Below the pieces are notes generated by a model. That model saw only the letters and a list, made by a program, of their open reading frames with translations. It was not told where the DNA came from and made no database searches. This document shows, in pieces, positions 1-22,307 of a DNA stretch of 64,000 nt. The DNA comes from a virus (Duplodnaviria > Caudoviricetes): the IMG/VR virus record IMGVR_UViG_3300024259_001623, one strand, 5' to 3'. Within the stretch, counting starts at the first letter, position 1, and each line of letters begins with the position of its first letter. The translations under genes were made by a program, and so were the position numbers.

Positions 1-25
1 TTTTTAATATTATCTTTATACCAAT

Positions 26-784
26 TCATGTTTTTATCTTGAAAAAGTTTCTAATTTTTGACCTTATCTTTATAATTTCTATTTTTTGACGAATCTCCTT
101 TATAGGAATACAACAAATAAAAGAAGTATTATACGGATAAGAATACATGAATCTTGATATAACCCCAATAACCTCATTTTTAGAGTTTAATAATGCACCA
201 CCAGACATCCCCTTATGACCACCACCATTTGTCCAAACCTCATTTTTACCTATATAACATATAGCCCCTCTAACAACAAATTTTCTAGACTTCCCAATCA
301 CATCAGCAGGAAAACCTATAGACCAAGAAATGTCTCCCAGTGTGGCTTCACCCATATTGTGAATAAAATATCTTTTATTAGATTTAAATTTTAATAATGC
401 TATATCAGCAACGTCAGACTTATATACAATCTCTGATTCATTATTATCTACAAAAATCTTTTGACCAAACATAACGACATGTTTAGCCGTAGCAGCATAA
501 TACCAACCATCAATAAATGATACAACAACACAAGACCCACCGATCTCTACCGTACTCTCCACTTCTATATCAGACAATGGATCTTTTATAATATCAGTTT
601 TGAAGAAACTTTTAAAAGTTGTCTTAATTGTTTTTGTAGTCTTTACCTGTAAAATCCCCTTTGACTCTATTTTTGTATTATTTCTTTCTACAAAAATAGA
701 AGAAGTTTTAAAAGTTAAATTGATATGACAACCTGACAAAAAACTTAACATAACAAGTAGGAGCAAAAAATATTTCACTGACAA
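26..784 (-). CDS. Trypsin-like serine protease, predicted lipoprotein
   Basis: Hydrophobic N-terminus ending in lipobox LSGC; triad motifs ATAKHV (His), ADIALL (Asp), GMSGGAL (Ser). Confidence 0.8.
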   Translation of the reverse strand: MSVKYFLLLLVMLSFLSGCHINLTFKTSSIFVERNNTKIESKGILQVKTTKTIKTTFKSFFKTDIIKDPLSDIEVESTVEIGGSCVVVSFIDGWYYAATAKHVVMFGQKIFVDNNESEIVYKSDVADIALLKFKSNKRYFIHNMGEATLGDISWSIGFPADVIGKSRKFVVRGAICYIGKNEVWTNGGGHKGMSGGALLNSKNEVIGVISRFMYSYPYNTSFICCIPIKEIRQKIEIIKIRSKIRNFFKIKT

Positions 785-801
785 TCTCCTAAAAAATATA
801 T

Positions 802-1821
802 TTATTGAGCAATCTCTTCTCTGATCTCTGCCAATGTAACGGGGAAGACTCCAAACTTCTCTACCTCTAATCCTCCAGCTATATTAGACAATTTGACACA
901 TGTTTCTAAATCCGCCCCTACCTTTTTAGCACAACATAACATAGCCAAAACCATATCGCCAGCGCCACTGACATCATATATCTTTCTCTGTTTAACAGGG
1001 AAAATTTTCCCTATAGATGAACCCTGCTTTAAAAAAGCACCATCCTTATCTAAAGTAATTAAAACGTTTTTTATACCATAACCACTATTGATAAAACCTG
1101 CGACTCCATCAACATTGGACAAATTATGATCATCAAGACGTTTTGTTGTTATAGCATTACTGGCTCCCCACATTATACAAGCTTCTTCTCTATTAGGAGT
1201 TACCAAAAACGCTCCCCTATAACGATAATATTTACTACTAAAAGCAAACCTAGCAGGATCGACTATGGCTGATGACCCATTAGAATCACACTTCTTCATA
1301 ATATCGCTGCAAAGTTTATCCACCACAACACCCTTGTTATAATCTTCTATAGCAACAACTGATCCATTAACTATATCTTTCTCCAACAATCCGTAAATTT
1401 TATCAATAACATCAGCAGAAATATCTTCTGTGCTTTCTTTGTCTATTCTTAACATCTGCTGTTGATGTCTGTGTTGAGCTAAACCAATACATCTCTGTTT
1501 TACTGTTGTAGGTCTACTTGGATCAATAACCATTCCCGATACATCTGCACCAGCCCCTCTCAATAAAGATAATAAAGAATAGCCATTACGGTCATCTCCT
1601 ACAACACCAAAACATTTTACACTCATACCTAATGCCAATATATTCATAGCAACAGATGCAGACCCACCACATCTATCCTCTTCCTTCTCTACCTTTAAAA
1701 CAGGAACAGGAGCTTCCGGACTTATCCTCTCACAATTGCCATAAATATACTTGTCCAACATGAAGTCACCGACAAGTATAATTTCTTTATCTCTTCTAAA
1801 TTTATTTAAAACCTTTTCCAT
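802..1821 (-). CDS. rfaE: D-glycero-D-manno-heptose-7-phosphate kinase (HldE/RfaE domain I, PfkB family)
   Basis: VGDFMLDKYIYGNCERISPEAPVPV N-terminal signature, DYNKGV, TPNREE and DVSGAGD PfkB motif. Confidence 0.9.
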   Translation of the reverse strand: MEKVLNKFRRDKEIILVGDFMLDKYIYGNCERISPEAPVPVLKVEKEEDRCGGSASVAMNILALGMSVKCFGVVGDDRNGYSLLSLLRGAGADVSGMVIDPSRPTTVKQRCIGLAQHRHQQQMLRIDKESTEDISADVIDKIYGLLEKDIVNGSVVAIEDYNKGVVVDKLCSDIMKKCDSNGSSAIVDPARFAFSSKYYRYRGAFLVTPNREEACIMWGASNAITTKRLDDHNLSNVDGVAGFINSGYGIKNVLITLDKDGAFLKQGSSIGKIFPVKQRKIYDVSGAGDMVLAMLCCAKKVGADLETCVKLSNIAGGLEVEKFGVFPVTLAEIREEIAQ

Positions 1822-1835
1822 AATTAATTTCTTAT

Positions 1836-2291
1836 CTATCCCGGATTTTTTGCCATATTTAAAGAATTCTCAAACTTACTAGTGTATTGTTTTATCTTAT
1901 TAAGACCTATAGCATATATTTTTATTTTACCGCGTTTAAAAACTATAAAACCAACCTGCAAGGTCTTAGGGTCATCCCACTTACATATATAATAACCTTT
2001 CCTAACAGCTAACTCAAAAAACTTTTGAAATTTAACTATATCTACACATTTAACCTTTTTAAAAACATTAAACACATCATGAATAGCTTCTACAACAATC
2101 TCTGAACCATCATGATGATTCTGTCTCAATAATAGAGAACCTATCCTCCCATTAGACCAATCTTCAACTGGCAAAATATTAATATCAAAAACAGAACCAT
2201 CAAATTCTGGCCAATCATAATTCAAACTAGTATGATTTATGAAATTGTTTATCATATATTCATTAAACGTATTCTCTTTTATCTCTACCAT
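1836..2291 (-). CDS. Hypothetical protein
   Basis: 151-aa ORF tightly packed in a minus-strand operon. Confidence 0.6.
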   Translation of the reverse strand: MVEIKENTFNEYMINNFINHTSLNYDWPEFDGSVFDINILPVEDWSNGRIGSLLLRQNHHDGSEIVVEAIHDVFNVFKKVKCVDIVKFQKFFELAVRKGYYICKWDDPKTLQVGFIVFKRGKIKIYAIGLNKIKQYTSKFENSLNMAKNPG

Positions 2292-2293
2292 AA

Positions 2294-2605
2294 TTATTCA
2301 TTCCAAAATAAATGACCTATAATTATACCCATCAATACAGGGAGAAATCCTGCGAATCCCCATATATACCACGTATAAACTCCGATGATTCCCATTATCC
2401 CAGCATCGACACCCCGAGGAAATAGCTTATGAATCCATTGCGAAATAGTATCCTCTTTCTTGACAACAAGAAAAATATCAATCACAGCAACAGCAATCAA
2501 TACACCAAACGCAACCCATACCCAAGACATCCACGTCAAAAACATAGCCAAAACCAACAAAACAACTCCAACTAATCTAGAAACAGAAATAAATTTCTCA
2601 CTCAT
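2294..2605 (-). CDS. Small membrane protein
   Basis: Three to four hydrophobic segments; GGAG RBS; 4-nt overlap with the upstream gene. Confidence 0.7.
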   Translation of the reverse strand: MSEKFISVSRLVGVVLLVLAMFLTWMSWVWVAFGVLIAVAVIDIFLVVKKEDTISQWIHKLFPRGVDAGIMGIIGVYTWYIWGFAGFLPVLMGIIIGHLFWNE

Positions 2606-3150
2606 AATATTTCTCCATTATTCTCCTGCTCTTCCTCAAGAACAGAAATAACACTTGATTCTATTGTTTTTTCAAACATCTCTTTAATAACAGAATGCTG
2701 ATTAGCCATATCAGAAGAAACTATCATCAAATCTTTCAATGTTCTTATAATAAGATGCTTAGTATACTTTTGATATAACCAGTCCAAATAACCATTCTTA
2801 GGAGCATCATTTGGACGACCATAAACAATCTTACCAGAACAGACGAACCGACCAAACTCTATGTTAGTAGTTAGCGCTGGCATCGTTTTCAAATCACGAG
2901 GAATCCAAAATACTATAACAGCACATTTGAGTAAACCTTCATCCTCCCACTCAACTTGATCCAAAAAACTATATTTAGTTTTACCCTGATGCTCAGGAAC
3001 TAAAACCTGGCCTTTGTAACCAATCTCTTCCAATAACTCTAAAGCTTCTGGCCTCCATGACTTTACATAATCAGTTCTAGGAGTAGGACCAGCTAAAAAT
3101 ATACTATTTGACTCAACAACTAATTCCTGATCCGAATATACTACCTTCAT
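2602..3150 (-). CDS. Nucleoside 2-deoxyribosyltransferase-like protein
   Basis: SIFLAGPTPR...SWRPEA...QVEWE...TTNIEFG pattern of the NDT-like family. Confidence 0.75.
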   Translation of the reverse strand: MKVVYSDQELVVESNSIFLAGPTPRTDYVKSWRPEALELLEEIGYKGQVLVPEHQGKTKYSFLDQVEWEDEGLLKCAVIVFWIPRDLKTMPALTTNIEFGRFVCSGKIVYGRPNDAPKNGYLDWLYQKYTKHLIIRTLKDLMIVSSDMANQHSVIKEMFEKTIESSVISVLEEEQENNGEIL

Positions 3151-3162
3151 AATATTCCTTTA

Positions 3163-3273
3163 TTAACACAATGCCCCAACAAGCCAATACGAATTATACA
3201 TTAAAGTATTAATCAAATCCACATAATCTGAAAAAAATACGCACAAATATAAATATGCTTCAAATAAATTCAT
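3163..3273 (-). CDS. Possible 36-aa small protein (not in ORF track)
   Basis: MNLFEAYLYLCVFFSDYVDLINTLMYNSYWLVGALC preceded by AAGGAG; fills the intergenic gap. Confidence 0.4.
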   Translation of the reverse strand: MNLFEAYLYLCVFFSDYVDLINTLMYNSYWLVGALC

Positions 3274-3300
3274 TATAAACTCCTTCTATTGTATCGACGC

Positions 3301-3747
3301 CTATCCCAATTCGTCCGCAATAGCCTGTAACTCCAATTCCGCTCTAAGCTCAGGACTGATAATGGCGTTCAATCTCGACTCCAACTTATCCAAACTCTTT
3401 TTCTTAGAAGAAATCTGGACCTTGGCAATTCTAGCCTTAATGTCGGAAATCCAATCTTCAACAGTAAACCCCTCCCAAGTAAAATCCGGGGCGCCGACAA
3501 GCCGCAAAACGTTTAGCCAGGCATCAATATAAGATTTTTTTCTTTCTACTAAAAATGCAGTAATACTAATCAACTTTTTAATATCCTTCTCAACATGAAG
3601 ATTTACAACATTAGTTGCACTTCCCTCAATATATGAAAAACTACAATTCGTCACATAATGATACTTCTCAGTCTGTGCAATCTCTTTCTTTCTTCTCGCT
3701 ACCTCTTTAATCAAATCCAACGTCTTTTGGTCTGTCTTGTTAGCCAT
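3301..3747 (-). CDS. Hypothetical phage protein
   Basis: 148-aa ORF with GGAG RBS; helical C-terminus. Confidence 0.7.
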   Translation of the reverse strand: MANKTDQKTLDLIKEVARRKKEIAQTEKYHYVTNCSFSYIEGSATNVVNLHVEKDIKKLISITAFLVERKKSYIDAWLNVLRLVGAPDFTWEGFTVEDWISDIKARIAKVQISSKKKSLDKLESRLNAIISPELRAELELQAIADELG

Positions 3748-3768
3748 ATCTCTATATCTCCTTAAATT

Positions 3769-4893
3769 TTAAATTGAATTACCACACAACTGAAACTCAG
3801 AACCACTTTCTAATCTAATAAATAAACCTAAACCTGTAGGCTCAATCCATTTAATCTTATTCCAATTAGTTGATCTATAATAAGGATAATAATTACTATT
3901 ATTTTTAGATTCAGGATTACTACATGTTCCATACCACTCTTCAAACGTCAATTTACCATTCTCAAACCTAACTATCTTCGAACTTTTTATATAATCAATT
4001 TCCGGCTTACCATACCTATAACATGTATCATACATTGTCCAAACATTATCCGCGTCTTCTGTAACCCAACCATCACTATAGTAATAATTGCGTTTTTCTT
4101 CTTTTTTCTTTGGAAGCTCCTTAGAAAATACATCAACAATCTTGCTACCGAACTTTGATTTACTATACTTCTCAACCAACTCAGCATAATTATCAGCCAC
4201 AACATCAGAACTCAAAACAGCAAGAAACTTTAAATCACTCTTAAAAATAAAACTATCTTCATCGCTATAATAACTACTAACATTCTTCCCCCAAAAAACA
4301 TGCATATTACGCTTTCCAATCTTTCCATGATTCAACGTATGACGAGCAAACCTACCTAAATACATAACATCATCTTGCTTCTTAGTTGTATAAGTAGCCC
4401 CAGGAATCAAATCCTTAGCCTTGACTCCCTGGCCCTGCAACTTCGTATAACTCTGAGAAACTTGATAATCAGAAGAAGTTTCAGGCAATAATACTAACTC
4501 AGTTCCATCCCAAGAATAAACAAATTTCCCCTCTAATCCCTTACCTCGACTACAATCACATTCTTTCAAAATGAATAAGAGATTTGCTACAGAAATTTCA
4601 AATTCAAAATCACGAGGATCATATACTCGGATATATTCGTTCCTAGCATTCCATCCATAAGATTGACGAGCGCCACCGACGCCCTTATTTAATACAAAAC
4701 CTTCAGTCGGTACATTATCAAAATCAACATCATCAATCTTATGATCTCGCCAATTGTTCCATGACTTTTCTTTTCTCTTTGTTCCTTTTTGATCGTAATA
4801 AATTACATATGCTAATTTTTTAGTATATGTGCCTTCACGATTCTGAAAACCTACGGCGATTTTCTTCGGAATAAATAATTGCTTGCTCTTCAT
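3769..4893 (-). CDS. Hypothetical phage protein
   Basis: 374-aa ORF with AGGAG RBS; N-terminal region (FIPKKIAVGFQ...YIRVYDPRDFEFEIS) resembles conserved unknown proteins of large phages. Confidence 0.7.
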   Translation of the reverse strand: MKSKQLFIPKKIAVGFQNREGTYTKKLAYVIYYDQKGTKRKEKSWNNWRDHKIDDVDFDNVPTEGFVLNKGVGGARQSYGWNARNEYIRVYDPRDFEFEISVANLLFILKECDCSRGKGLEGKFVYSWDGTELVLLPETSSDYQVSQSYTKLQGQGVKAKDLIPGATYTTKKQDDVMYLGRFARHTLNHGKIGKRNMHVFWGKNVSSYYSDEDSFIFKSDLKFLAVLSSDVVADNYAELVEKYSKSKFGSKIVDVFSKELPKKKEEKRNYYYSDGWVTEDADNVWTMYDTCYRYGKPEIDYIKSSKIVRFENGKLTFEEWYGTCSNPESKNNSNYYPYYRSTNWNKIKWIEPTGLGLFIRLESGSEFQLCGNSI

Positions 4894-4910
4894 CTGTTAT
4901 TGCTCCTTCT

Positions 4911-5078
4911 TTATTTTTTATCAATAGCTTTTGCTAGTTTTTCTCTGGCTGACTCTAAAGCTTCCATTCTTCTACATCTTTCCTCGCTCCTATCTGGAGA
5001 ATTATACATTCCTGGAAGTGGTTCACTCATTTCGAGTAATGCAGCTTCATACTGAATAAGAATTTCTTTTGTGTCCAT
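4911..5078 (-). CDS. 55-aa small protein (not in ORF track)
   Basis: MDTKEILIQYEAALLEMSEPLPGMYNSPDRSEERCRRMEALESAREKLAKAIDKK; fills the gap downstream of a TGnTATAAT element. Confidence 0.6.
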   Translation of the reverse strand: MDTKEILIQYEAALLEMSEPLPGMYNSPDRSEERCRRMEALESAREKLAKAIDKK

Positions 5079-5094
5079 TAGTTCTTCTCTCTAT

Positions 5095-5103
5095 ATTATA
5101 TCA
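5095..5103 (-). promoter_or_regulatory. Putative extended -10 promoter (TGATATAAT)
   Basis: Exact TGnTATAAT 16 nt upstream of the 4911-5078 start codon. Confidence 0.5.
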
Positions 5104-5110
5104 ACGTGAT

Positions 5111-5935
5111 TCACTTTTGCTTTTTAATTTTCGGAATTCTATCACAAAAATCTAAAACAGCTTTTTTAAATTTATTCGGAATACGAATATTTATATCTAT
5201 ATAATCTTGCCATAAAATAGTTTTGATTTCGTTAAACACGTTTTTTGCCATATTACATATTTTTCGCCAAAAACGAACAGGATGATTAGATTCGAAACAA
5301 AGACTATTTATAAAATCTATGGTTTCTTTATATATTTCTTTTTTTTCCATAGTATAATTCATTCTTTTATTAAAAGACATACAATATGAGAATGGCTCCC
5401 TTATACGACTAGGTTCCTTATATTCTATTTTTTCATCAGTAAATCCTGGAGTTTTTTTATTAGGATCTATCCTGCCCACCATATAAGGATGTTCTGTAAA
5501 ATCTACTAATTCATTTAAAGATCTAGTTCTAAATAAATTTAATATACTTGACATATGTGAATCTATCTCTTCACATATACATAAAATATGTTTTTTATTT
5601 AAAAAATCTTTAGAAAAACCAAAGTCCAACTCGTCTCTAAAATAATTTTGACATTTTTTTATTTCAAATATCAAATCATTAATCTTATTTTCATTTATTT
5701 TGTGTCTTTCTCTTTTTTCATCAGACGACAAAAAATCAGTTTTATTATCTAAAATTTGCTGTATATGGCTTTGTTTTATAAAATCGATAGCGTAAGATAT
5801 GTTTTTTTTACATTCTGATAAAGGATAAACAATATCTTTATGTCTCTTATCTATATTTTTCCCAACTCTAGACCTCACAGCCTCAATTGCAGCAATCGCC
5901 CCTAAAATTATAATTACTAAGGTGCTTATTTCCAT
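5111..5935 (-). CDS. Hypothetical protein with N-terminal membrane anchor
   Basis: MEISTLVIIILGAIAAIEAV hydrophobic start; GGAG RBS. Confidence 0.65.
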   Translation of the reverse strand: MEISTLVIIILGAIAAIEAVRSRVGKNIDKRHKDIVYPLSECKKNISYAIDFIKQSHIQQILDNKTDFLSSDEKRERHKINENKINDLIFEIKKCQNYFRDELDFGFSKDFLNKKHILCICEEIDSHMSSILNLFRTRSLNELVDFTEHPYMVGRIDPNKKTPGFTDEKIEYKEPSRIREPFSYCMSFNKRMNYTMEKKEIYKETIDFINSLCFESNHPVRFWRKICNMAKNVFNEIKTILWQDYIDINIRIPNKFKKAVLDFCDRIPKIKKQK

Positions 5936-6019
5936 CTTCTTTCTCCAAATCTATTTCTTCTTAATTAGATTACTTCATCAGTCTTGCACTTTGACCTAAA
6001 TTTTAAATATTCTGAATAA

Positions 6020-8113
6020 TCAACTTATCACAAAAATAGGCTCAAATTTATTTCCGCCACCAAATTTAGGATATTTAATTCTGTCCTCACCTAAAAGCAT
6101 ATTTTTCGATTCTAAATATTCTTTTAAATCATCTGCAATAGGATAAGCCCCTGTATTTGCTACATTAATAGCAACTTTCTTGCTTACTCTACTAGACTCA
6201 ACCACACACGGAATTAAGTAATTATCAAACCACTCTCCATATGAACCATATTTCTGTGAACTCTGCTTACTATCAGTATCATATAATTCTGCATCAAAAT
6301 AAGGTGGAGATGTAAAACAAAAATCAAAAGTATTATCTACAAACATCTTCATACCCAAGAGGCTGTCCTGGTTGTTTATATTAATACTTGTCTTAATATT
6401 TTTATATACATATAATGAATGACGTAAATTATGTAAACCAGAAAAAGAATCTAAATTTATTTCGATACCATGATACGATTTTACTTTTTCAGAAGCAGAC
6501 GCTCCAAATAATCTACCACCATAACCAGCACAAAAATCTAATACATTACTTCCCTCATCACAATATTTATCGTATATAGATTTAGCTATACAGGGCATAA
6601 ACCCGCTAACACATTTATTTCCACGATATCTTCTTAATTTTCTTAATAAAACTCTGCCAATAGGAATCCTGTCATTTAAAATAACTTCTCTAACGATTTC
6701 TTTTAAATATATTTCATTATTAAAAATTTCTCTAGGAGAATAAGAACCTTTCGCTTTAGCCGTCCAAAAATTAGGAAAATGATACATAAGAAAAATATTA
6801 CCCAAAGAAGAAAAATCGATACAATCTTCCTTAATTGTTTTTCCCGTGTCAAATTCAAATACTTTTCTCATATCCGTTAAATGATTTTTAGGATCATCTA
6901 ACAGCGATCTAAAACCTTGATGATGAAGTGAAAAAACAATATTATCCACCCATTCATCTTGCTTATCTTTATTCATAGACATAAAATTATCAGAGAGAGG
7001 ACATTCTTTTATATCATGAATAGAAAGATTTTTCTTTTGTTTCCAGCTTGTATGGTCATTTTTATTTATTTTGTAATAAAACATAGGCAAAACATAAGAA
7101 GATACTAAATCAACAAATTTTTCTGAATGATATGTTCTTATTTTTACCCTATAATACAAATTACCATTAGATTTTCTGTCTGCAAGAAAAGCATCTATTC
7201 CATATCTTTCTTTAAACCACTGGACTATTAACTCGCAACTTTCTTTAGAAAATGAATCTGTACAAAAAGAAAATTGCGGTTTATGCTCTCTAATATCTGT
7301 AGAACCGTCGTCTTGATACCAAACAGCTAATCCTAATGGAGTTATATTATCAAGTATTTTTCTAGTTGGCTCTCTTTTATCATCTTTATAAAATTCAGAA
7401 AGTATATTTTCTACATCAGTATTAGCATGGGTATAAAAACTACAAGTAGTATTAAAGCCATTATGTCTAGGGTCAAAACTCAAAGATTCTTTTAGAGATT
7501 TTTCCGAAACAACACTTTTAAATTCATTAAATTTCCACAAAAGATATTTTTTCTGTTTGGAACTATGAGAAAAACCTACGGACGCAGTATTATAACTTTT
7601 ATTAACATATTGTCTTTTTGCATCTCCCATTAGAGATCCATATAATATCTCTTTTTGTCTTTGAGTCAAAGGAACTTCAGTATTTTTTCTATTTTGGTAC
7701 TTAAATCCTGTAGCCTTAAAATTATAAAGTTGTCTTAAAAATGTTATATCACTTTTGGATATATTATACCTATCAGCTATATCATTTAATGGTAACCCAG
7801 ATCTATAATCATTATAAAATGTATCTTTGTCTAAAATAATTTTCCCTTGCAAAAAATTACTAAAAAACTGCACTAAATGCTTAGATACTCCACTTCTGGA
7901 TATGTCTTTAAAACTCTTGCCAGAGTCTACCAACTCTCTTAATTCTCTAAAAGTAATAAAATTAAGTTTTCTGTTTCTAGAACTCTTTTGTAATTGAACA
8001 TCTAAATATGGTTCAACTAAATCCCAATCTAATTTGCTTTTCATCTTATTAAGTTTAGCAAGCTTCATTTGCTCTATAGCTTCTTTACTTAAATTTTGTC
8101 CTTTCTTAGGCAT
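6020..8113 (-). CDS. LAGLIDADG homing endonuclease fused to an amino (N4C/N6A) DNA methyltransferase
   Basis: ILYGSLMGDA and GLAVWYQDDGS (two LAGLIDADG motifs); C-terminal VLDFCAGYGG (SAM motif I) and FTSPPY (motif IV). Confidence 0.8.
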   Translation of the reverse strand: MPKKGQNLSKEAIEQMKLAKLNKMKSKLDWDLVEPYLDVQLQKSSRNRKLNFITFRELRELVDSGKSFKDISRSGVSKHLVQFFSNFLQGKIILDKDTFYNDYRSGLPLNDIADRYNISKSDITFLRQLYNFKATGFKYQNRKNTEVPLTQRQKEILYGSLMGDAKRQYVNKSYNTASVGFSHSSKQKKYLLWKFNEFKSVVSEKSLKESLSFDPRHNGFNTTCSFYTHANTDVENILSEFYKDDKREPTRKILDNITPLGLAVWYQDDGSTDIREHKPQFSFCTDSFSKESCELIVQWFKERYGIDAFLADRKSNGNLYYRVKIRTYHSEKFVDLVSSYVLPMFYYKINKNDHTSWKQKKNLSIHDIKECPLSDNFMSMNKDKQDEWVDNIVFSLHHQGFRSLLDDPKNHLTDMRKVFEFDTGKTIKEDCIDFSSLGNIFLMYHFPNFWTAKAKGSYSPREIFNNEIYLKEIVREVILNDRIPIGRVLLRKLRRYRGNKCVSGFMPCIAKSIYDKYCDEGSNVLDFCAGYGGRLFGASASEKVKSYHGIEINLDSFSGLHNLRHSLYVYKNIKTSININNQDSLLGMKMFVDNTFDFCFTSPPYFDAELYDTDSKQSSQKYGSYGEWFDNYLIPCVVESSRVSKKVAINVANTGAYPIADDLKEYLESKNMLLGEDRIKYPKFGGGNKFEPIFVIS

Positions 8114-8224
8114 TATAAGTCTCCTTTATTAGTGTTACCAGAATATAATACCTATCGGTAACACAATGTAGAAAACTTTAATACATAAAAATAGGTGCGT
8201 CGTAAGTCTATATAAAATAAAGAT

Positions 8225-9529
8225 TTACGTCCCACTTGAAAATAAATAACGAAACCAACGAGACCTTCCACCTGGAAGCGTAAATTCTGGAACTACGATT
8301 GCTCTTGTTAATCCAACGTAAGGACCATACTTTTTCTGTTCATATATATCTTTAACTTCTTCTTCATAGTTCTTTTTCAGTGTTTCCATATTATCGAAGG
8401 CTTTATTTGCTCCTTCTGGACCGCCAAAGACTTGTTGTGGTTCTTGGAATTGCAGGCAGAGCATTAATCTTCTCAGAGCATCGACTGCTGCTTGTTTAAT
8501 AACCACAGGAATGTATCTATCAGGAACTGAATTAACAGTATATCCACTATGAGGAGGATAACTATTCAGTGTTCTGATAGCATTTATAATAAATTCATAT
8601 AGTTCATCATCTGAGAACCATCTGAAATTATAATCTACGTTAACGACATCAAAATCTGTTAATGGAGAACTAAAGACTACTTCGCCTTTGAAATAATCTA
8701 CATTGACGCCGGATGTAACGATTTTATCTTGATTTCTATAGACTTTAATACCTGCTGTTTGGTTCCATCTTGGGAATGTAAATCTATAGGTTTTATGGTC
8801 AACAGTTTGTTTTGATTGCTCGAAATATACGGGAACTGATTGTGCGCATAAAATATATTTTTCCAGAGCTATAATCAATTCTCTTGCTCTTCCTGTATAT
8901 ACTTCATTTTCATCGCCTGTAGTCGGATCTTTTTCTGACACAACAAGATCTTGAATTTCTGATCTTACGACTCCATCTACAGTATATTCCCAAATAGCCT
9001 GATAGTCACCAGTAGTCCTAGTTTCCTCTATATCCCAATCAAATATATAAAACCCTATATCGGCCTTCACAGGAACTCCGAGCGTCACAAGGGTTCCTGC
9101 GTTGTTATTAATAGTTGTTGTAATAGATGTAGCATCTTGAGGATTGCCATCAAAATCTGTAATCTTTAGTAATAGTACAGCGGTTGTATTTTGCTTGAAG
9201 GAACCTTTAAAGTCTGTTGATGCTGTAACTGTGCCTGCATTGGGTACAAATGGTCCTACTTTATCTACTTTATAGACTGGAGTATCTTCAGCTTCGGGGA
9301 TAACTTCCCATGATACCAGATATGTTAGTGTATCATCTGCATCGAAGGTATATTCATAAACTCCTGTAGCTGGGTTACTTGTAGCTGTTCCATCTGCAAC
9401 AACGACGGTATCGGAGTCTAGTTCTTTAATTCCGTAATCTGCCTCATCTGATGATAATTTGACAGAATTTGCATTAACAGACAGTCCATTTTTCTTATAT
9501 AGAAAAGACACAGTGCGATCAGGCATCAC
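8225..9529 (-). CDS. Putative virion structural protein (Ig-like N-terminus, head-tail adaptor-like helical C-terminus)
   Basis: Acidic beta-rich repeats (GVYEYTF, GFYIFDW, GDYQAIWEY); helical end (FSDDELYEFI...AAVDALRRL) reminiscent of neck adaptors. Confidence 0.45.
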   Translation of the reverse strand: MMPDRTVSFLYKKNGLSVNANSVKLSSDEADYGIKELDSDTVVVADGTATSNPATGVYEYTFDADDTLTYLVSWEVIPEAEDTPVYKVDKVGPFVPNAGTVTASTDFKGSFKQNTTAVLLLKITDFDGNPQDATSITTTINNNAGTLVTLGVPVKADIGFYIFDWDIEETRTTGDYQAIWEYTVDGVVRSEIQDLVVSEKDPTTGDENEVYTGRARELIIALEKYILCAQSVPVYFEQSKQTVDHKTYRFTFPRWNQTAGIKVYRNQDKIVTSGVNVDYFKGEVVFSSPLTDFDVVNVDYNFRWFSDDELYEFIINAIRTLNSYPPHSGYTVNSVPDRYIPVVIKQAAVDALRRLMLCLQFQEPQQVFGGPEGANKAFDNMETLKKNYEEEVKDIYEQKKYGPYVGLTRAIVVPEFTLPGGRSRWFRYLFSSGT

Positions 9530-9554
9530 ATTCTCCCATTATAATTTAATATAC

Positions 9555-9586
9555 TTTATATTTGGGAAATATTATTAAAATCCCTT
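9555..9586 (-). promoter_or_regulatory. Putative late promoter AAGGG-N20-ATATAAA
   Basis: Same spacing at 42161-42192 and 55849-55880, each upstream of a virion-type gene. Confidence 0.45.
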
Positions 9587-10383
9587 TAAGAAAAGAAAAC
9601 ATTAATTTCCTTAATAATAGCCTCTCTGGTGGGCCTTTTTCTTTTCTTTTTTATATTATTAATCATAATTGCTACGACGCTGGTTGCGATTCCTAATGAG
9701 GCTTGTCTGCCTGTCATTTTAGCGTATTGTCCTTCTCCGTATGTAGTATAGAACTTAAAGCTTCTTGGCGGTTTTATATTAATAATATTATTTTCCGCGC
9801 TAATATTCCATTTTTTATTTGTTCCGGTTTTATAATTAACGCCTATAACATTATTATACCCGAACGGGTATATATTTACATTTTTGTCATCGAATGGAGT
9901 TAATATAATTGTTTGTTGTTTAACTGCCTTATTGATAGCATCTTTTAGTGAGTGGTCATCTATATTAGTTGCTAGTGGAAGTACAACGACATTAGACTTT
10001 TTGATAATAGCCCATAACAGTCCTGCTACGATACTGGGAGTATTAGTTTTCCCATTCTTATTAAAAATCTTCGCTGCTGTCAATTCAGCATTTGTTGATA
10101 ATCCTGTAATACCTTTTGGATTATCTGATGTTATAAAGCCTGATAGTGTTGTAGCGTTTCCATGTTCATCTAGGATATTTTTATCGGCGCTAAAATTTTC
10201 CATATCTTTAATATTCATCACATCGCAATGAGAAGGGACGCCTGTGCTTAGAAGACATATTTTAACCTTTCCGCCTTTATTTTGGAACTCAAAATCTTTC
10301 ATAATTTTGAAATAATTTTGACTGTCCGGCAGTTTGTTTTCTATGCTATTTGGGCCTACTCGTTTTATAAAAAAATCACTCAT
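9586..10383 (-). CDS. Subtilisin (S8)-fold protein with degenerate catalytic triad
   Basis: KICLLSTGV (Asp->Ser), DEHGNAT (His->Asn), MTGRQA (Ser->Gln) align with the S8 motifs VAVIDTG, GHGT and GTSMA. Confidence 0.75.
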   Translation of the reverse strand: MSDFFIKRVGPNSIENKLPDSQNYFKIMKDFEFQNKGGKVKICLLSTGVPSHCDVMNIKDMENFSADKNILDEHGNATTLSGFITSDNPKGITGLSTNAELTAAKIFNKNGKTNTPSIVAGLLWAIIKKSNVVVLPLATNIDDHSLKDAINKAVKQQTIILTPFDDKNVNIYPFGYNNVIGVNYKTGTNKKWNISAENNIINIKPPRSFKFYTTYGEGQYAKMTGRQASLGIATSVVAIMINNIKKKRKRPTREAIIKEINVFFS

Positions 10384-10395
10384 AAATACCTTTCT

Positions 10396-11121
10396 TTATT
10401 GTAAAAAATGTTTAGGAACGTCAAATACTTTACCAGAGCCAAACAACTCTATTTTAAAGTTATAATTTATAGTCTTTAAGAAATACACTTCTTTTCTCAA
10501 AAACAGTGCTATATTAAGAGTAAGAAAATCATCTGTTATAATTCTTTTGCATCTATTTATTTCATCCATTTTTTTATGGATATGTTGTTTTTGTGGGATA
10601 TACCACAACCTAGATTCTTTTAATTTAAGTTCTGTATACAAATATTCTTTTAAATTATAATTAGATAACAGGATACCAGTCCTATTTTTAACTGATTTAT
10701 TTCTAGGTTTATAATTTACATCTGCCCCTTCCCCCCTCCAGGACATACCTGCCAACTGATTATATATCTGAAACATATTCTTATTAGTTTTTTTATTACC
10801 ATAAAGAATATTCTTGTATTTATCTTTTGGATCTGTATAATTTATACCTACACATTTATCTACATTTAATAGGGAATCATTTATTGATGGGGATAAATTT
10901 ATTAATAAATCATAATGATTTAACAATAGATTTTCTTCATCTTGTCGATGTTTTAAAGTAAATACTTTCTTAACATATTTAGAATATTCAAAAACATCTG
11001 CTGTTGAGTCAAATACAGTAGCAACGTACACATCCCCCTGCTTTGACAACTTCTTCAAAAGACAAGTTGCTACAAAGCATTCGCTCATATGTCCTAAACT
11101 GGCTAAAAGAATATTCATCAT
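10396..11121 (-). CDS. GT9 (heptosyltransferase)-like protein, divergent
   Basis: ILLASLGHMSECFVATCLLKKL aligns with the GT9 N-terminal motif; YDLLINL downstream; shortened C-terminal domain. Confidence 0.55.
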   Translation of the reverse strand: MMNILLASLGHMSECFVATCLLKKLSKQGDVYVATVFDSTADVFEYSKYVKKVFTLKHRQDEENLLLNHYDLLINLSPSINDSLLNVDKCVGINYTDPKDKYKNILYGNKKTNKNMFQIYNQLAGMSWRGEGADVNYKPRNKSVKNRTGILLSNYNLKEYLYTELKLKESRLWYIPQKQHIHKKMDEINRCKRIITDDFLTLNIALFLRKEVYFLKTINYNFKIELFGSGKVFDVPKHFLQ

Positions 11122-11132
11122 ATTACCTTATA

Positions 11133-11801
11133 CTAAAAATCGTTCGGGAGCAGTCCTCTCTCGTTGCTAGAACTACTATCCAATCTTCTGGTTCCGGAAC
11201 CTTTTAATTCATTTGTCATATCAATAACAATAGCATCGTCTGCTGCTATATCTCCGTCAGCATAGGCTGCTGCGGAGCCTGGTTCTGAACCAGAGACTAA
11301 CATGCTGTTCATTGCAGCGTCTTCTCTCTCTCTATTTTCAGAATCCAATATAGATTGTTCTTCATGCACTTCGTTTAACGTTAATATTTCTATTTTCCCT
11401 GAGTCCAACAACTGATTAAATATTCTATTATTTTTCATATTTTTTTCGCCATGAGTTTTAATCAAATCAGATAAAGATTTAAAATCATTTAAGCCTTTTA
11501 ATTCTAAATCTAAATCACTCAAAACAATATTGCTTCTTGAAGAAGATCTGACAAACAATGCTTCTTCGCTATCCCAGATATCATCTTTATTGATGATATT
11601 TTTCTTTTTACCATACGATTCTTCAACAAGATTTACAATATCATCTATATCGGTTTTTATAGCATCAGTTATATATAAAACCTCGTTGCCTATAGCTTTA
11701 AACTTATTGAGTTTTTGTATATTTCTGAATGGAATAGAAGTTTCTCCGGTTCTGCTATATACTTTTACTGTTTTACTTTTTATATCCAAAAAAACTATCA
11801 T
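11133..11801 (-). CDS. Hypothetical protein carrying the shared ~55-aa module
   Basis: 222-aa ORF; FVRSSSRSNIVLSDL...LLDSGKIEI resembles the N-termini of the 11798 and 16570 proteins. Confidence 0.65.
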   Translation of the reverse strand: MIVFLDIKSKTVKVYSRTGETSIPFRNIQKLNKFKAIGNEVLYITDAIKTDIDDIVNLVEESYGKKKNIINKDDIWDSEEALFVRSSSRSNIVLSDLDLELKGLNDFKSLSDLIKTHGEKNMKNNRIFNQLLDSGKIEILTLNEVHEEQSILDSENREREDAAMNSMLVSGSEPGSAAAYADGDIAADDAIVIDMTNELKGSGTRRLDSSSSNERGLLPNDF

Positions 11802-13192
11802 AATTTACTCCATATAGAATCCAATCTATCTTTAGCCATCTGTGCTACAGTTGGTATATTGTATTTTGTTTTTACTAATTTCTGCAATTTTTTATTTTTC
11901 TTTTGTGCTTCAGAATAATTTTCATATACATATCTCATTTGTTTTCTGGCATCTCGTATAACTTTCTTCGACTGTAGTTCTGGGAACATTTGACCATCCC
12001 AATAATGAACATGCATAGACCCTGGCTGCATTTCAGAAATATTATCTACATCAACCAGATATGAATTACTTTTCTTTAAGAACATGGTCTGTGCGCTGCA
12101 ATTAGAACCTATTACTGGCAGACCGCATAAAGACGACTCACAATATGGAAGACCAAATCCTTCTCCGCGCGAAAATAGAACAAAAGCATCTGCTGCTCTA
12201 TAAATATTAGGCATTCTGTTTTCTGGTATTATACTACTACATCTTGCAATATGAGCAGCTTCGGATTTACCATTGTTATCTATATATCTTTTAATAACAT
12301 CTTTAATAACATCTTTTCCGTGAGCATTACAATTGAATCTACTGACAATCAACAATGAAACAGGATCATCTGACGAAAATTCTTCTAAATACGATTTCAA
12401 TAACACATCATAACCTTTTCTATAACTCCATCCAAATACGCTTATGAAAACAAAGTCTTTTAAGCTAGGATTAAATTCATATGGATCGCTATTTTCATTA
12501 TACAAATTAGTATCTATAGAATCTGGTATAACATAGATAGGTCTACTTACATTATGTTTCTCTAAAATTTCTTTACAGAAATCAGATGTAACCCATATTT
12601 CATTATAACTATTAGATATATCAACAAATTGTTGAGGTATAGAATAGGCTTCGACCGTGGTATATAAAATTCTATATCTAGATGCAGACATACTACTAAA
12701 TGTAGGTATCATACTATCTATAGAAATCGCCTTTCTGCTTACTGTTTTATTGATATGAGACAATCTTTTTATTTCTGCTTCATTTAGGTTATTCGAGTAT
12801 TTATTTGATGCATCTATATTGACTCTCACTCCTAATTTATGTAGACCTTCCGCTATATTTCTATTTACTTTGGCATATCCGCCAGCTTCATAGAAATGGC
12901 CTCTTATTTTTACTTCTAGATCTTTACAGCTTTCCATTTCGATTTTCTCATCCTCTTCTTGTTTTATTATTTTTTCTTTTGATTCTTTTTGTGATTTTAA
13001 TAAGCTTCTTTCTAAAGCAGTTTTACCGCACTTTGTTATTTCAATTTGACCCATACTAACCAATAATCTAAAAGAATTAGATTTCTTGACATTATCCAAC
13101 GAGATATGTTGTACCTCATCTCCTAAGAACGGGATATTCTTATCTATATCGCTTAAAAATATAGTGTTATTTGATCTATTTACAAAGTCCAT
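11798..13192 (-). CDS. GT-B glycosyltransferase (GT4-like) with N-terminal extension
   Basis: FISVFGWSYRKGYDVLL and SRGEGFGLPYCESSLCGLPVIGSNCSA (EGFG..E motif). Confidence 0.85.
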   Translation of the reverse strand: MDFVNRSNNTIFLSDIDKNIPFLGDEVQHISLDNVKKSNSFRLLVSMGQIEITKCGKTALERSLLKSQKESKEKIIKQEEDEKIEMESCKDLEVKIRGHFYEAGGYAKVNRNIAEGLHKLGVRVNIDASNKYSNNLNEAEIKRLSHINKTVSRKAISIDSMIPTFSSMSASRYRILYTTVEAYSIPQQFVDISNSYNEIWVTSDFCKEILEKHNVSRPIYVIPDSIDTNLYNENSDPYEFNPSLKDFVFISVFGWSYRKGYDVLLKSYLEEFSSDDPVSLLIVSRFNCNAHGKDVIKDVIKRYIDNNGKSEAAHIARCSSIIPENRMPNIYRAADAFVLFSRGEGFGLPYCESSLCGLPVIGSNCSAQTMFLKKSNSYLVDVDNISEMQPGSMHVHYWDGQMFPELQSKKVIRDARKQMRYVYENYSEAQKKNKKLQKLVKTKYNIPTVAQMAKDRLDSIWSKL

Positions 13193-13220
13193 ATTTTTTA
13201 TATCGTCAATATCTAATCTT

Positions 13221-13246
13221 AATAAAAAACCTGGCAGTAGCCAGGC
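13221..13246 (-). terminator. Intrinsic terminator
   Basis: Minus strand CCTGGC-TACT-GCCAGG followed by TTTTTTATT, downstream of the PEP-CTERM gene. Confidence 0.8.
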
Positions 13247-13283
13247 TTTATATTAAATCATCTTTTAATTTATAAGTTTATTT

Positions 13284-13991
13284 TTATCTTTTTCTTTTTG
13301 CTAATATAGCTGTAGATCCTATCAAAAAAAACAACGCTGTAGTCGGTTCTGGAGTATAAGTATAAGCATCAACGCCAGGTTCTCTCCACCATGACAATAA
13401 TATACTCAAATCTGCATCATCAACAATTCCTACAAAATCATCATTAATAGGATCTTCATGAGTTCCCAACCATACATTTCCTTTTTGATATGTCCGATAT
13501 TCACCCCAATTAGATAACAAAATGCTTAAATCATCATCTTCTACAAATCCATCATGATTCAAATCACCTGGATAAACATCAACCCAAATAAAAACCCATG
13601 AATTATACGATTGACCATCTTCACCAACAAGATTGATCCAATGCTGATCTGCTCCCCAAGAGTCAATCTCTGGTGTAAAAGTATAATAATCCGGCCCCAC
13701 ATCTTGATAAAAATGTACATCTATATCGCCTTTGATAATTCTAGTAGCTCCTATCATAGAGATATTCTTCATACCAATGTCATTTTCTAATGGATAGATA
13801 TTAATACTATTTCCTAATAATACATAATAATCATCTATAGCCCCATCTGCTGGCAATGGATAAAATGGATATACAGTCGCAGGATTAGGATTAAATTCAA
13901 ATTCGTATGCAAAAGAAGGTTGAGTAAAAAATAAAATACAAAATATAATAATAACTAAAATATGCTTCAAATATCTACTTGCAAGTCCCAT
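13284..13991 (-). CDS. Secreted PEP-CTERM protein with dockerin-like motifs
   Basis: ATG at 13991 with GGAGG RBS (track start 14030 is TTG); signal peptide ending QPSFA; GDLNHDGFVEDDDLSILLSNWG and VDDADLSILLSWW; C-terminal TPEPTTALFFLIGSTAILAKRKR. Confidence 0.85.
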   Translation of the reverse strand: MGLASRYLKHILVIIIFCILFFTQPSFAYEFEFNPNPATVYPFYPLPADGAIDDYYVLLGNSINIYPLENDIGMKNISMIGATRIIKGDIDVHFYQDVGPDYYTFTPEIDSWGADQHWINLVGEDGQSYNSWVFIWVDVYPGDLNHDGFVEDDDLSILLSNWGEYRTYQKGNVWLGTHEDPINDDFVGIVDDADLSILLSWWREPGVDAYTYTPEPTTALFFLIGSTAILAKRKR

Positions 13992-14047
13992 AGTACTTGT
14001 CCTCCATGATCCCCCAATAAGTTTCTTCAATCCATTCTTACTTTAGC

Positions 14048-15383: not shown

Positions 15384-15433
15384 GCTAAATTCTCCAGTTT
15401 TTAATACAATAAGCATATTTATATTCTATTTAT

Positions 15434-15562
15434 TTACATCATTCTCCTTGTTCTAATATGTTCCATTTCTATTTTAACACCTTTTACCAATTGTTTCTTG
15501 CAAAAATCTAATGGAAGATTATTATCTCCTACTCCACCAGGTATATTATCTTTATAATCCAT
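15434..15562 (-). pseudogene. Truncated paralog of the DUF5661-like gene (42 aa, not in ORF track)
   Basis: MDYKDNIPGGVGDNNLPLDFCKKQLVKGVKIEMEH aligns with LPDGLADNRVPSDFCKEQLEKGILTEMEH of 14048-14623, then stops just before the GIY-YIG gene; AAGGAG RBS. Confidence 0.7.
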
Positions 15563-15572
15563 AATAAACTCC

Positions 15573-15932: not shown

Positions 15933-15939
15933 TTATGCT

Positions 15940-22294: not shown

Positions 22295-22307
22295 TTTTTA
22301 ACAGGCA

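What the first reader, a model, noticed from the sequence alone, without database searches (positions are those of the whole stretch)
6020..8113. Homing endonuclease fused in frame to a DNA methyltransferase
An HTH-like N-terminus and a two-motif LAGLIDADG nuclease continue without intein splice motifs into an SPPY-type MTase, with a TRD-like segment before motif I. It could be a selfish nuclease carrying self-protection, or a miniature restriction-modification-like weapon against co-infecting phages.
Basis: partly seen in the sequence, partly recalled or inferred. Interest (0 to 1): 0.6.

Follow-up and report, generated by a model that had tools for sequence, protein, structure and literature searches.

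The report
Mobile homing nuclease fused to methyltransferase
A huge marine-type phage carries one gene that welds an I-SceI-like homing nuclease to a methyltransferase (probably acting on DNA); the fusion is real and widespread, and it behaves as a swappable selfish cassette at one fixed genome site, with the methyltransferase as optional cargo.

Summary
Window 6020..8113 (- strand) is one 697-aa ORF made of a helical, HTH-like N-terminus, a two-motif LAGLIDADG nuclease and a C-terminal SPPY amino-methyltransferase.

- **Not a chimera.** The identical protein lies on 11 contigs, 65 collinear homologs of about 700 aa exist, and 79 more distant fusions were found.
- **Nuclease.** It is I-SceI/I-WcaI-like. 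The equivalents of I-SceI D44, D145 and K223 are kept in 64 of 65 members. At the K122 column the window has Arg, with Lys next to it.
- **Methyltransferase.** Motifs I and IV are near-invariant. DNA is the likely substrate, but this is not proven.
- **No intein and no intron** were found.

New here: the gene always sits just after a conserved 434-aa neighbour gene. In about 60 interpretable related loci that site holds the fusion (14-15), the nuclease alone (15-20), or neither (14-16). It never holds the methyltransferase alone. These states are scattered over the neighbour-gene tree. Two phages with 99.5% identical flanks carry different cassettes, and a run of synonymous changes marks the neighbour gene's last 17 codons.

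The best reading is a free-standing homing endonuclease cassette with a fused methyltransferase as cargo. A coupled restriction-modification-like role is not excluded, but nothing found here supports it.

The scan's index lists this same stretch under a second first-reader note with the same reading.

The parts
6020..8113 (-). Whole ORF, 697 aa (P0001): HTH-like N-terminus, LAGLIDADG nuclease and amino-methyltransferase in one frame
   Evidence: identical protein on 11 contigs; 65 collinear homologs
7670..8113 (-). Residues 1-148: helical N-terminal extension with an HTH-like three-helix unit at 96-129. It belongs to the nuclease module, because nuclease-only relatives have it too
   Evidence: nuclease-only ORFs share it
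7058..7669 (-). Residues 149-352: single-chain two-motif LAGLIDADG domain, I-SceI/I-WcaI-like. D164 and D269 are the catalytic Asp equivalents. K246/R247 and K348 are the equivalents of I-SceI K122 and K223
   Evidence: residue roles from PMC3258161 and PMC3017599
6980..7057 (-). Residues 353-378: poorly conserved, lower-confidence linker. Nuclease-only relatives end inside it
6599..6979 (-). Residues 379-505: helical subdomain that precedes motif I. It is also present in stand-alone MTase homologs and is a possible substrate-recognition domain
   Evidence: no specific structural match
6023..6598 (-). Residues 506-697: Rossmann catalytic domain. Motif I is DFCAGYGG (526-533) and motif IV is TSPPY (601-605), in the order I then IV
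8202..8214 (-). TATATAGACTTAC, the window's version of a short motif (consensus ATAAGGACTTAY) that follows the neighbour gene's stop codon in many nuclease-bearing alleles. Function unknown
8225..9529 (-). Conserved 434-aa neighbour gene (p434, unknown function). Its 3' end marks the left border of the cassette and is the candidate homing region

Best explanation
The gene is a free-standing homing endonuclease cassette of a huge tailed phage. An I-SceI-type single-chain LAGLIDADG nuclease, with its own N-terminal HTH-like DNA-binding extension, is translationally fused to a complete phage-type amino-methyltransferase (SPPY, most likely a DNA N4-cytosine or N6-adenine enzyme).

Shown:
- The fusion is real, old and widespread.
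- Both catalytic centres are conserved.
- The cassette sits at one fixed site directly after a conserved neighbour gene.
- That site is polymorphic among related phages: fusion, nuclease alone, or empty, but never methyltransferase alone.
- Cassettes have been exchanged between nearly identical genomes, together with the last 17 codons of the neighbour gene.

Inferred:
- The nuclease cuts the cognate region of phages lacking this allele during co-infection, probably in or near the invariant 3' end of the neighbour gene.
- Repair then copies the cassette (intronless homing).
- The methyltransferase is cargo that travels with the nuclease and works independently, probably as an orphan methylase against host restriction.
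- In return, the fusion makes the selfish nuclease harder to delete.
For: Fusion is real:
- The identical protein is on 11 contigs.
- There are 65 collinear homologs and 79 more distant fusions.

Nuclease:
- The PDB profile search gives E 7e-25 to I-WcaI and 1e-22 to I-SceI.
- Foldseek gives TM 0.79 normalised to the target.
- Equivalents of I-SceI D44, D145 and K223 are kept in 64 of 65 members, and the K122 column holds Lys in 64 of 65 (Arg in this window's protein).
- The two Asp are kept in 76 of 79 distant fusions and in 53 of 53 nuclease-only forms.

MTase:
- Motifs I and IV are near-invariant.
- The domain model has pLDDT 95.7 and a Rossmann fold.
- Links to DNA MTases: PHROG DNA MTase families, PADLOC MTase_II, PF01555 in 14 of 65 members, and the N4C DNA MTase 8s9n at E 5e-4 as a circular permutation.

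Locus:
- The order glycosyltransferase, two ORFs, S8 peptidase, p434, then the cassette is conserved.
- Allele survey: 14-15 fused, 15-20 nuclease-only, 14-16 empty, 0 MTase-only.
- The states are interspersed on the p434 tree; 14 fused rows need 14 changes.

Recent swap, L127 versus L131:
- Flanks are 99.5% identical, cassettes are unalignable as DNA, and the nucleases are 47% identical.
- The last ~52 nt of p434 carry roughly 16 differences that leave the protein unchanged except for its last residue (T/V).
- A 3' remnant of a nuclease gene follows the MTase stop in L127, L146 and L009.

Separability:
- Nuclease-only ORFs end cleanly with no MTase remnant.
- The 350-kb record of L011 holds no close MTase.
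- P0024 has a dead nuclease and an intact MTase.
- The same nuclease is fused to a GNAT domain in P0166.

Context: the window holds several other selfish nucleases.
Against: - No cleavage or methylation was observed, and the homing site is only inferred.
- The two halves have diverged in step and at the same rate (pairwise identity r = 0.87, means 0.458 and 0.457). A functional partnership would predict this too.
- This MTase family is also fused to two other homing-type modules (LAGLIDADG_3 and DUF7487). This hints at a synergy beyond hitch-hiking.
- In this clade the MTase is never found without the nuclease.
- The nearest solved folds of the MTase core are RNA methyltransferases (METTL5 Z 17.1, Trm11 Z 16.6), so a DNA substrate is not proven.
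- The window's own protein has Arg at the I-SceI K122 column.
- The direction of the L127/L131 swap cannot be decided, because L146 shares the remnant.
Confidence: 0.6

Rival explanations
1. Coupled single-chain restriction-modification-like enzyme. The methyltransferase methylates a base inside or beside the nuclease's long target. The phage's own DNA is thereby protected, while unmodified DNA of co-infecting phages or the host is cut.
For: - Both catalytic centres are conserved over more than 140 fusion clusters.
- The halves co-evolve at equal rates.
- The same MTase family is independently fused to LAGLIDADG_3 and DUF7487 nuclease-type modules.
- There are no MTase-only alleles at the locus.
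Against: - Nuclease-only alleles with intact catalytic residues persist at the same locus. One lies in a genome whose flanks are 99.5% identical to a fused allele. Loss of the MTase is therefore tolerated.
- P0024 keeps the MTase with a degenerate nuclease.
- The MTase module has its own N-terminal helical subdomain and many stand-alone relatives, often several per phage locus. This is typical of orphan methylases.
- According to PMC9957025, LAGLIDADG enzymes have not been described in R-M systems.
Confidence: 0.15
2. Domesticated nuclease scaffold. The HTH-LAGLIDADG half serves mainly as a long-site DNA-binding or targeting module that delivers the methyltransferase to particular sites. Cleavage is absent or incidental.
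For: - LAGLIDADG folds are reused as DNA-binding modules; the WhiA N-terminal domain appears among the fold matches.
- The linker is flexible and the whole-protein pTM is only 0.58, against 0.92 for the MTase domain alone.
Against: - The catalytic Asp pair and flanking Lys residues are conserved in nearly all fused and unfused members. A pure binding module would not need them.
- The locus shows presence/absence polymorphism and cassette swapping typical of an active homing nuclease.
- The MTase has its own putative recognition subdomain.
Confidence: 0.1
3. The methyltransferase half acts on RNA (tRNA or rRNA, m2G or m6A type) or another non-DNA substrate. The fusion to a DNA nuclease is then fortuitous.
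For: - The top structural neighbours are METTL5, Trm11, Trm14/TrmN and PH1948.
- Pfam Cons_hypoth95 (RsmD-like) matches 45 of 65 members.
- A source annotates some homologs as RsmD.
Against: - Motif IV is TSPPY, as in N4-cytosine DNA methylases. The profile matches the N4C DNA MTase 8s9n in both the motif I and motif IV regions.
- PHROG and PADLOC DNA MTase families match.
- PF01555 matches 14 of 65 members and many distant homologs.
- The Z-scores of the RNA enzymes (16-17) are only slightly above those of generic Rossmann MTases (13-15).
Confidence: 0.1
4. Assembly chimera, or a read-through of two separate genes.
For: None found.
Against: - The identical ORF is on 11 contigs of different assemblies.
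- There are 65 collinear homologs and 79 distant ones with the same junction.
- The stand-alone MTase fragments with the highest identity to the C-half start at contig ends.
Confidence: 0.01

Closest known systems
I-SceI and I-WcaI (mitochondrial group I intron LAGLIDADG endonucleases, Pfam PF03161)
   Same: Single-chain two-motif LAGLIDADG fold. The profile E-values are 1e-22 and 7e-25, and the TM-score is 0.79. Equivalents of D44, D145, K122 and K223 are kept across the family.
   Different: This gene is not inside an intron. It has an extra ~150-aa HTH-like N-terminal extension and a ~330-aa C-terminal methyltransferase. It is phage-borne.
Free-standing phage homing endonucleases that spread by intronless homing (T4 Seg and Mob proteins; from my own knowledge, not checked in a paper here)
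   Same: The gene lies between conserved genes and is present or absent among relatives. Flanking sequence of the neighbouring conserved gene is co-converted.
   Different: Those enzymes are GIY-YIG or HNH types and carry no fused enzymatic cargo. This one is a LAGLIDADG enzyme with a fused methyltransferase.
Actinophage methylase Taj_79 with a non-intein LAGLIDADG domain (Gosselin et al. 2023, PMC9957025)
   Same: A LAGLIDADG nuclease domain lies in frame with a phage methylase and has no intein. The authors raised the same two readings, selfish element or R-M in one peptide, and left them open.
   Different: There the nuclease is an insertion within the methylase, in nine cluster-F phages. 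No mycobacteriophage record appeared in my tblastn of the phage collection, so the two are not detectably related at that threshold. Here the nuclease is N-terminal, the family is far larger, and locus polymorphism and a recent cassette swap are documented.
Type IIG/IIC/IIL single-chain restriction-modification enzymes (MmeI, BcgI, Eco57I; from my own knowledge)
   Same: A nuclease and an amino-methyltransferase lie in one polypeptide, with the nuclease N-terminal.
   Different: Those use PD-(D/E)XK-type nucleases and a shared specificity domain, and the two activities are obligately linked. Here the nuclease is a LAGLIDADG enzyme with its own DNA-binding surface, and it also occurs without the methyltransferase.
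Phage orphan DNA methyltransferases of the N6_N4 type (PF01555; N4C MTase 8s9n)
   Same: The TSPPY motif IV and FxGxG motif I are shared, and stand-alone relatives are abundant in phages, often several per locus.
   Different: The motif order is I then IV, a circular permutation relative to the beta-class enzymes. The core fold ranks closest to the Trm11/METTL5-type enzymes.

Membership tests
LAGLIDADG homing endonuclease, I-SceI-like (PF03161) | Two LAGLIDADG motifs in one chain, each ending in a catalytic acidic residue | tested here: met
   Motifs at 156-165 and 262-271. D164 and D269 align with I-SceI D44 and D145 and are kept in 64 of 65 members. Residue roles are from PMC3258161.
LAGLIDADG homing endonuclease, I-SceI-like (PF03161) | Pseudo-symmetric alpha-beta-beta-alpha-beta-beta-alpha fold like solved members | tested here: met
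   The model has pLDDT 91.4. Foldseek gives E 1e-13 to I-WcaI and 4e-12 to I-SceI, with TM 0.79 by target.
LAGLIDADG homing endonuclease, I-SceI-like (PF03161) | Peripheral active-site lysines (I-SceI K122 and K223) | tested here: met
   K348 corresponds to K223. The K122 column is Lys in 64 of 65 members. The window has R247 there with K246 adjacent, and Arg recurs among distant fusions. Roles are from PMC3017599.
LAGLIDADG homing endonuclease, I-SceI-like (PF03161) | Mobility: sporadic presence at a fixed site, with flanking co-conversion | tested here: met
   Fused, nuclease-only and empty alleles occur after p434 and are interspersed on the p434 tree. The L127/L131 swap shows a run of synonymous changes in p434's last 17 codons.
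LAGLIDADG homing endonuclease, I-SceI-like (PF03161) | Site-specific double-strand cleavage of a long target | not testable with these tools
   Needs a cleavage assay.
Intein | Hint splicing blocks flanking the nuclease, inside a host protein | tested here: not met
   No Hint or Intein_splicing match. The same tool finds them in the portal ORF of this window. Nuclease-only relatives are complete free-standing ORFs with the same N-terminus.
Group I intron-encoded endonuclease | ORF embedded in a ribozyme that splits a host gene | tested here: not met
   No Rfam match at E up to 1 in 5000-9600. The MTase part is complete compared with stand-alone homologs, so no gene is split.
Exocyclic amino-methyltransferase with (D/N/S)PP(Y/F) | AdoMet-binding motif I (FxGxG) and catalytic motif IV on a class I Rossmann fold | tested here: met
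   DFCAGYGG and TSPPY are near-invariant. The domain model has pLDDT 95.7, with Z 14-17 to amino-MTases.
DNA N4-cytosine/N6-adenine methyltransferase | DNA as substrate, and which base is modified | tested here: inconclusive
   Sequence links point to DNA MTases, but the nearest folds are RNA MTases. TSPPY fits the N4-cytosine signature as I recall it. A methylome experiment is needed.
Type IIG/IIC single-chain restriction-modification enzyme | Nuclease of a known restriction fold (PD-(D/E)XK, HNH, GIY-YIG, PLD, half-pipe) | tested here: not met
   The nuclease is a LAGLIDADG enzyme.
Type IIG/IIC single-chain restriction-modification enzyme | Nuclease activity obligately accompanied by the protecting methyltransferase | tested here: not met
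   Nuclease-only alleles with intact catalytic residues lie at the same locus.

The most novel reading that the evidence does not exclude
The HTH-LAGLIDADG-methyltransferase proteins are a new class of single-chain, restriction-modification-like enzymes built on a LAGLIDADG nuclease. This fold has never been seen in R-M systems. Methylation by the fused domain would mark the phage's own copy of a long target as self, and the nuclease would destroy or convert unmarked competitor genomes.
Probability: 0.15. Interest if true: 0.85.

Novelty: new variant of a known kind. Interest (0 to 1): 0.55.

Why it matters
- **Homing in uncultured phages.** The data show homing-endonuclease biology (a fixed hot spot, allele swapping, flanking co-conversion) operating in uncultured huge phages. 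They also identify a large, uncharacterised family in which a meganuclease carries an enzyme as in-frame cargo.
- **Spread of methylases.** If the methyltransferase is an anti-restriction methylase, homing would be a route by which such genes spread between phages.
- **A possible new R-M type.** If the two activities are coupled, this would be the first R-M-like system built on a LAGLIDADG nuclease.
- **Practical use.** Natural single-chain meganuclease-methyltransferase proteins with many diverged members are ready-made scaffolds. They could be tested for long-site DNA recognition linked to methylation.

Tried and rejected
- **Read support across the junction.** Independent assemblies served instead.
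- **Near-identical DNA in the phage collection.** None found.
- **Whole genome.** None is held for this window.
- **Paralog in the window.** The 696-aa ORF at 24282..26372 is unrelated to P0001. An HMM search of the six frames finds only one copy.
- **Stand-alone MTases with the highest identity to the C-half.** P0127 and P0128 (44-45% identical) start at contig ends, so they are truncated fusions, not real stand-alone genes.
- **Ancestral state of the fusion.** In the nuclease-domain tree all outer clades are fused. I do not read this as 'the fusion is ancestral'. Distant nuclease-only proteins would score too low to enter the lists seeded with the two-domain query. Only the interspersion inside the close clade (at least 6-7 forced changes) is used.
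- **Structural identification of the helical subdomain 379-505.** No specific match was found.
- **NCBIfam.** No match.
- **The motif after the p434 stop as a general promoter.** It is not enriched in the window: 5 matches against 2.9 expected.
- **Codon comparison at the p434 3' end.** By eye, empty alleles more often read GGC...TGGTTTAGATAT than nuclease-bearing ones. The empty alleles are partly one clade, so this is a lead only.
Full report
**What is there.** The window's 6020..8113 (- strand) is a single 697-aa ORF, P0001.
- Pfam places LAGLIDADG_2 at residues 154-333 (E 9e-29), with weak methyltransferase matches at 520-623.
- PHROGs gives 'homing endonuclease with LAGLIDADG motif' for 149-352 and DNA methyltransferase families for about 500-670.
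- The two LAGLIDADG motifs are at 156-165 and 262-271. MTase motif I (DFCAGYGG) is at 526-533 and motif IV (TSPPY) at 601-605.
- The window belongs to a large tailed phage with portal, large terminase, major head protein and ribonucleotide reductase genes. Contigs carrying this exact protein reach 434 kb.

**The fusion is real and old.**
- The identical protein is called on 11 contigs of separate assemblies.
- A word-seeded search and an exhaustive HMMER search returned about 60 collinear homologs of about 700 aa at 34-52% identity, plus many 640-1560-aa proteins with the same nuclease-to-MTase junction.
- I aligned 65 full-length members (A1) and fitted the rest to its profile. A further 79 proteins carry both domains.
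- A 485-kb uncultured phage (LR745208) has a 1229-aa ORF with two HTH-LAGLIDADG modules, the MTase and a Cys-rich tail.
- Pairwise identities of the nuclease half and the MTase half across the 65 members correlate at r = 0.87, with equal means (0.458 and 0.457). The two halves have therefore diverged together for a long time.

**The nuclease half.**
- The family profile hits I-WcaI (E 7e-25) and I-SceI (E 1e-22) among solved structures.
- The full-length model (pLDDT 91.4) superposes on them with TM 0.79 normalised to the target.
- In the printed alignment I-SceI D44 and D145 fall on D164 and D269, K223 falls on K348, and K122 falls on the column of residue 247. D44 and D145 are the two active-site residues mutated to inactivate I-SceI (PMC3258161). 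K122 and K223 each control cleavage of one strand (PMC3017599).
- These four columns are conserved in 64 of 65 members. The window's own protein has Arg at 247 with Lys at 246.
- The Asp pair is also kept in 76 of 79 distant fusions and in all 53 nuclease-only relatives.
- One fused member, P0024, has lost them (K, S and M at the D164, D269 and K348 columns) while keeping the MTase motifs.
- The first ~150 residues are helical, with a three-helix unit at 96-129. Relatives give HTH_28/HTH_23 matches there. Nuclease-only proteins share this extension, so it belongs to the nuclease module.

**Not an intein and not an intron ORF.**
- No Hint or splicing family matches. The portal ORF of the same window gives Intein_splicing, Hom_end_hint and LAGLIDADG_3 with the same tool, which serves as a positive control.
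- Rfam finds nothing in 5000-9600 at E up to 1.
- The MTase part is complete relative to stand-alone homologs. One example is the 330-aa Vibrio phage 'N-4 cytosine-specific DNA methylase', which covers residues 379-695.

**The methyltransferase half.**
- Motifs I and IV are near-invariant.
- The domain model (residues 366-697) has pLDDT 95.7 and pTM 0.92. It shows a helical subdomain followed by a Rossmann core.
- The nearest solved folds are amino-methyltransferases with the same motif order: METTL5 (Z 17.1), Trm11 (16.6) and Trm14/TrmN (16.2-16.3). These are only a little above generic Rossmann enzymes at 13-15.
- At sequence level the links are to DNA methylases:
  - PHROG DNA MTase families;
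  - PADLOC MTase_II around motif IV;
  - PF01555 in 14 of 65 members;
  - the N4-cytosine DNA MTase 8s9n (E 5e-4), matched as a circular permutation with motif IV first in the target.
- Stand-alone relatives covering about 380-695 at 28-34% identity are common in IMG/VR phage contigs. There are often two or three paralogs in one locus, as is usual for orphan phage DNA methylases.
- I conclude that this is an active amino-methyltransferase and probably acts on DNA. Neither the base nor even the nucleic acid is proven.

**The locus.**
- Reading in the gene's direction, the order is a glycosyltransferase, two small ORFs, an S8 peptidase, a 434-aa protein of unknown function (p434, 8225..9529), and then the fusion.
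- This order recurs in relatives whose proteins are only 34-50% identical. Downstream the gene content differs in every relative.
- In two IMG/VR contigs (L011, 350 kb; L023) the same position holds only the nuclease half (368 and 370 aa). It ends cleanly after the LAGLIDADG domain, with no MTase remnant. The L011 record holds no close MTase elsewhere, though it is estimated 73% complete.
- In L010 the p434 homolog is followed by neither half.

**Allele survey.** I used an alignment of p434 homologs (A3) to fetch 80 metagenome loci and classified what follows p434.

| State after p434 | Loci |
|---|---|
| Fused nuclease-MTase | 14-15 |
| Nuclease alone | 15-20 |
| Other, shorter LAGLIDADG genes | 8 |
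| Neither within 2.5-9 kb | 14-16 |
| MTase alone | 0 |

- On a tree of p434 the states are thoroughly mixed. The 14 fused rows need 14 changes, no better than shuffled labels.
- On a tree of the nuclease domain, fused and unfused forms are interspersed within the close clade, with at least 6-7 changes forced by supported branches.

**A recent swap.**
- L127 (fused, 703 aa) and L131 (nuclease only, 367 aa) have flanks that are 99.5% identical over 2.3 kb upstream and 1.3 kb downstream. The segments between them do not align as DNA, and their nucleases are only 47% identical.
- On the left, identity is perfect until the codons for LPGGRSRWFRYVFGSG at the end of p434. There, roughly 16 differences accumulate in about 52 nt, and the protein is unchanged except for its last residue (T/V).
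- On the right, the shared sequence begins directly after the MTase stop codon of L127. In L131 this sequence encodes the last ~27 residues of the nuclease (LIRPHILPIFLYK...). L127 therefore carries a 3' remnant of a nuclease gene behind its MTase.
- The same kind of remnant follows the MTase stop in L146 and in the distant L009, but not in the window.
- Because L146 shares the remnant with L127, I cannot tell which of L127 and L131 is the derived state.
- Either way, whole cassettes are exchanged between co-circulating phages, with a breakpoint in the invariant 3' end of p434. This is the pattern expected for a free-standing homing endonuclease that cuts in or near a conserved neighbouring gene. 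The expectation is my knowledge of T4 Seg/Mob homing and was not checked in a paper here.

**How it most likely works.**
- Shown: a real fusion, conserved catalytic centres, a fixed polymorphic locus, and cassette exchange with a flanking run of synonymous changes.
- Inferred:
  - The nuclease cleaves alleles that lack its cassette during co-infection.
  - Repair copies the cassette.
  - The MTase is cargo that functions on its own, probably as an anti-restriction methylase.
  - The fusion makes the nuclease harder to lose.
- Separability is supported by several observations:
  - Nuclease-only alleles have intact active sites.
  - P0024 has a dead nuclease and a live MTase.
  - The same nuclease is fused to a GNAT domain in P0166.
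- Some facts would also fit a functional partnership:
  - The two halves co-evolve at equal rates.
  - There are no MTase-only alleles.
  - This MTase family is fused independently to LAGLIDADG_3 (P0087, P0088, P0090) and DUF7487 (P0250, P0255) modules.
- For these reasons I keep the coupled R-M-like reading at about 0.15.

**Comparison with what is known.**
- The nearest described case is the actinophage methylase Taj_79, where a non-intein LAGLIDADG domain sits inside a methylase in nine cluster-F phages. Its authors weighed 'independent selfish element' against 'R-M in one peptide' and noted that LAGLIDADG enzymes have not been described in R-M systems (PMC9957025).
- The present family differs in several ways. 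The nuclease is N-terminal, the MTase fold order differs, the family is much larger, and it is found mainly on large phage contigs. It was not detectably related to any mycobacteriophage record in my phage search.
- My full-text searches found no paper describing this family.
- I file it as a new variant of a known kind: a free-standing LAGLIDADG homing endonuclease with an in-frame methyltransferase cargo.

**Verdict.** Interest is 0.55.

Noticed in passing
window 8202-8214 (-); loci L095-L174 just after the p434 stop: A short motif (consensus ATAAGGACTTAY, often preceded by TAT) lies 2-40 nt after the p434 stop. It occurs in 18 of 46 distinct nuclease-bearing alleles against 1 of 14 empty ones (Fisher p = 0.026). 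In some loci it pairs with TAAGTCCTT, which overlaps the stop codon, to form a hairpin. It is not enriched elsewhere in the window. It could be a promoter, an operator or a terminator of the cassette.
   Followed up: partly
L127 5469-5550; L146 and L009 just after the MTase stop: The last ~25 codons of a LAGLIDADG nuclease gene (LIRPHILP.F.YK...) sit directly behind the stop codon of the fused gene in three loci, one of them very distant. This is a scar of cassette replacement. No such scar is present in the window.
   Followed up: partly
window 35041..38385 (-): The portal ORF (1114 aa) contains an intein (Intein_splicing, Hom_end_hint, LAGLIDADG_3 at about 105-467). It also has a C-terminal DUF559/REase_MTES_1575-like nuclease domain at about 983-1059.
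   Followed up: no
window 24282..26372 (-): A 696-aa ORF matches PHROG homing endonuclease/HNH families and Pfam DUF7487, with a YunG-like C-terminal domain. It is a second nuclease with an appended domain. DUF7487 modules are also fused to the same MTase family elsewhere (P0250, P0255).
   Followed up: partly
window 21112..22236 (+): A TnpB-like ORF (OrfB_IS605 plus the Cas12f1-like TNB domain), one of only two long (over 300 aa) ORFs on the + strand in the window (the other is the cytidylyltransferase-like ORF at 55937..57088).
   Followed up: no
window 14604..15416 (-): A GIY-YIG plus NUMOD3 homing endonuclease. Together with the items above, this 64-kb stretch holds at least five selfish nuclease elements.
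   Followed up: no
L001 2918..6607 (LR745208, 485-kb uncultured phage): A 1229-aa ORF with two HTH-LAGLIDADG modules, the MTase and a Cys-rich tail. By eye, the first module has Asn and Arg where the catalytic Asp residues should be, and the second is intact. P0173 and P0183 have the same layout.
   Followed up: partly
L003 2256..4489 (Bacteroides phage PhiCrAssBcn18): A stand-alone HTH-LAGLIDADG relative (26% identity over residues 51-350) sits between two pieces annotated as replicative DNA helicase. This suggests an intron or a split gene there.
   Followed up: no
L009 1..1663: The glycosyltransferase upstream of the cassette in this relative carries an intein (Intein_splicing and LAGLIDADG_3 hits on record). 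The window's ortholog (11798..13192) has none.
   Followed up: no
window 1..64000: GC skew is negative in every 2-kb bin (-0.07 to -0.43) and nearly all long ORFs are on the - strand.
   Followed up: no
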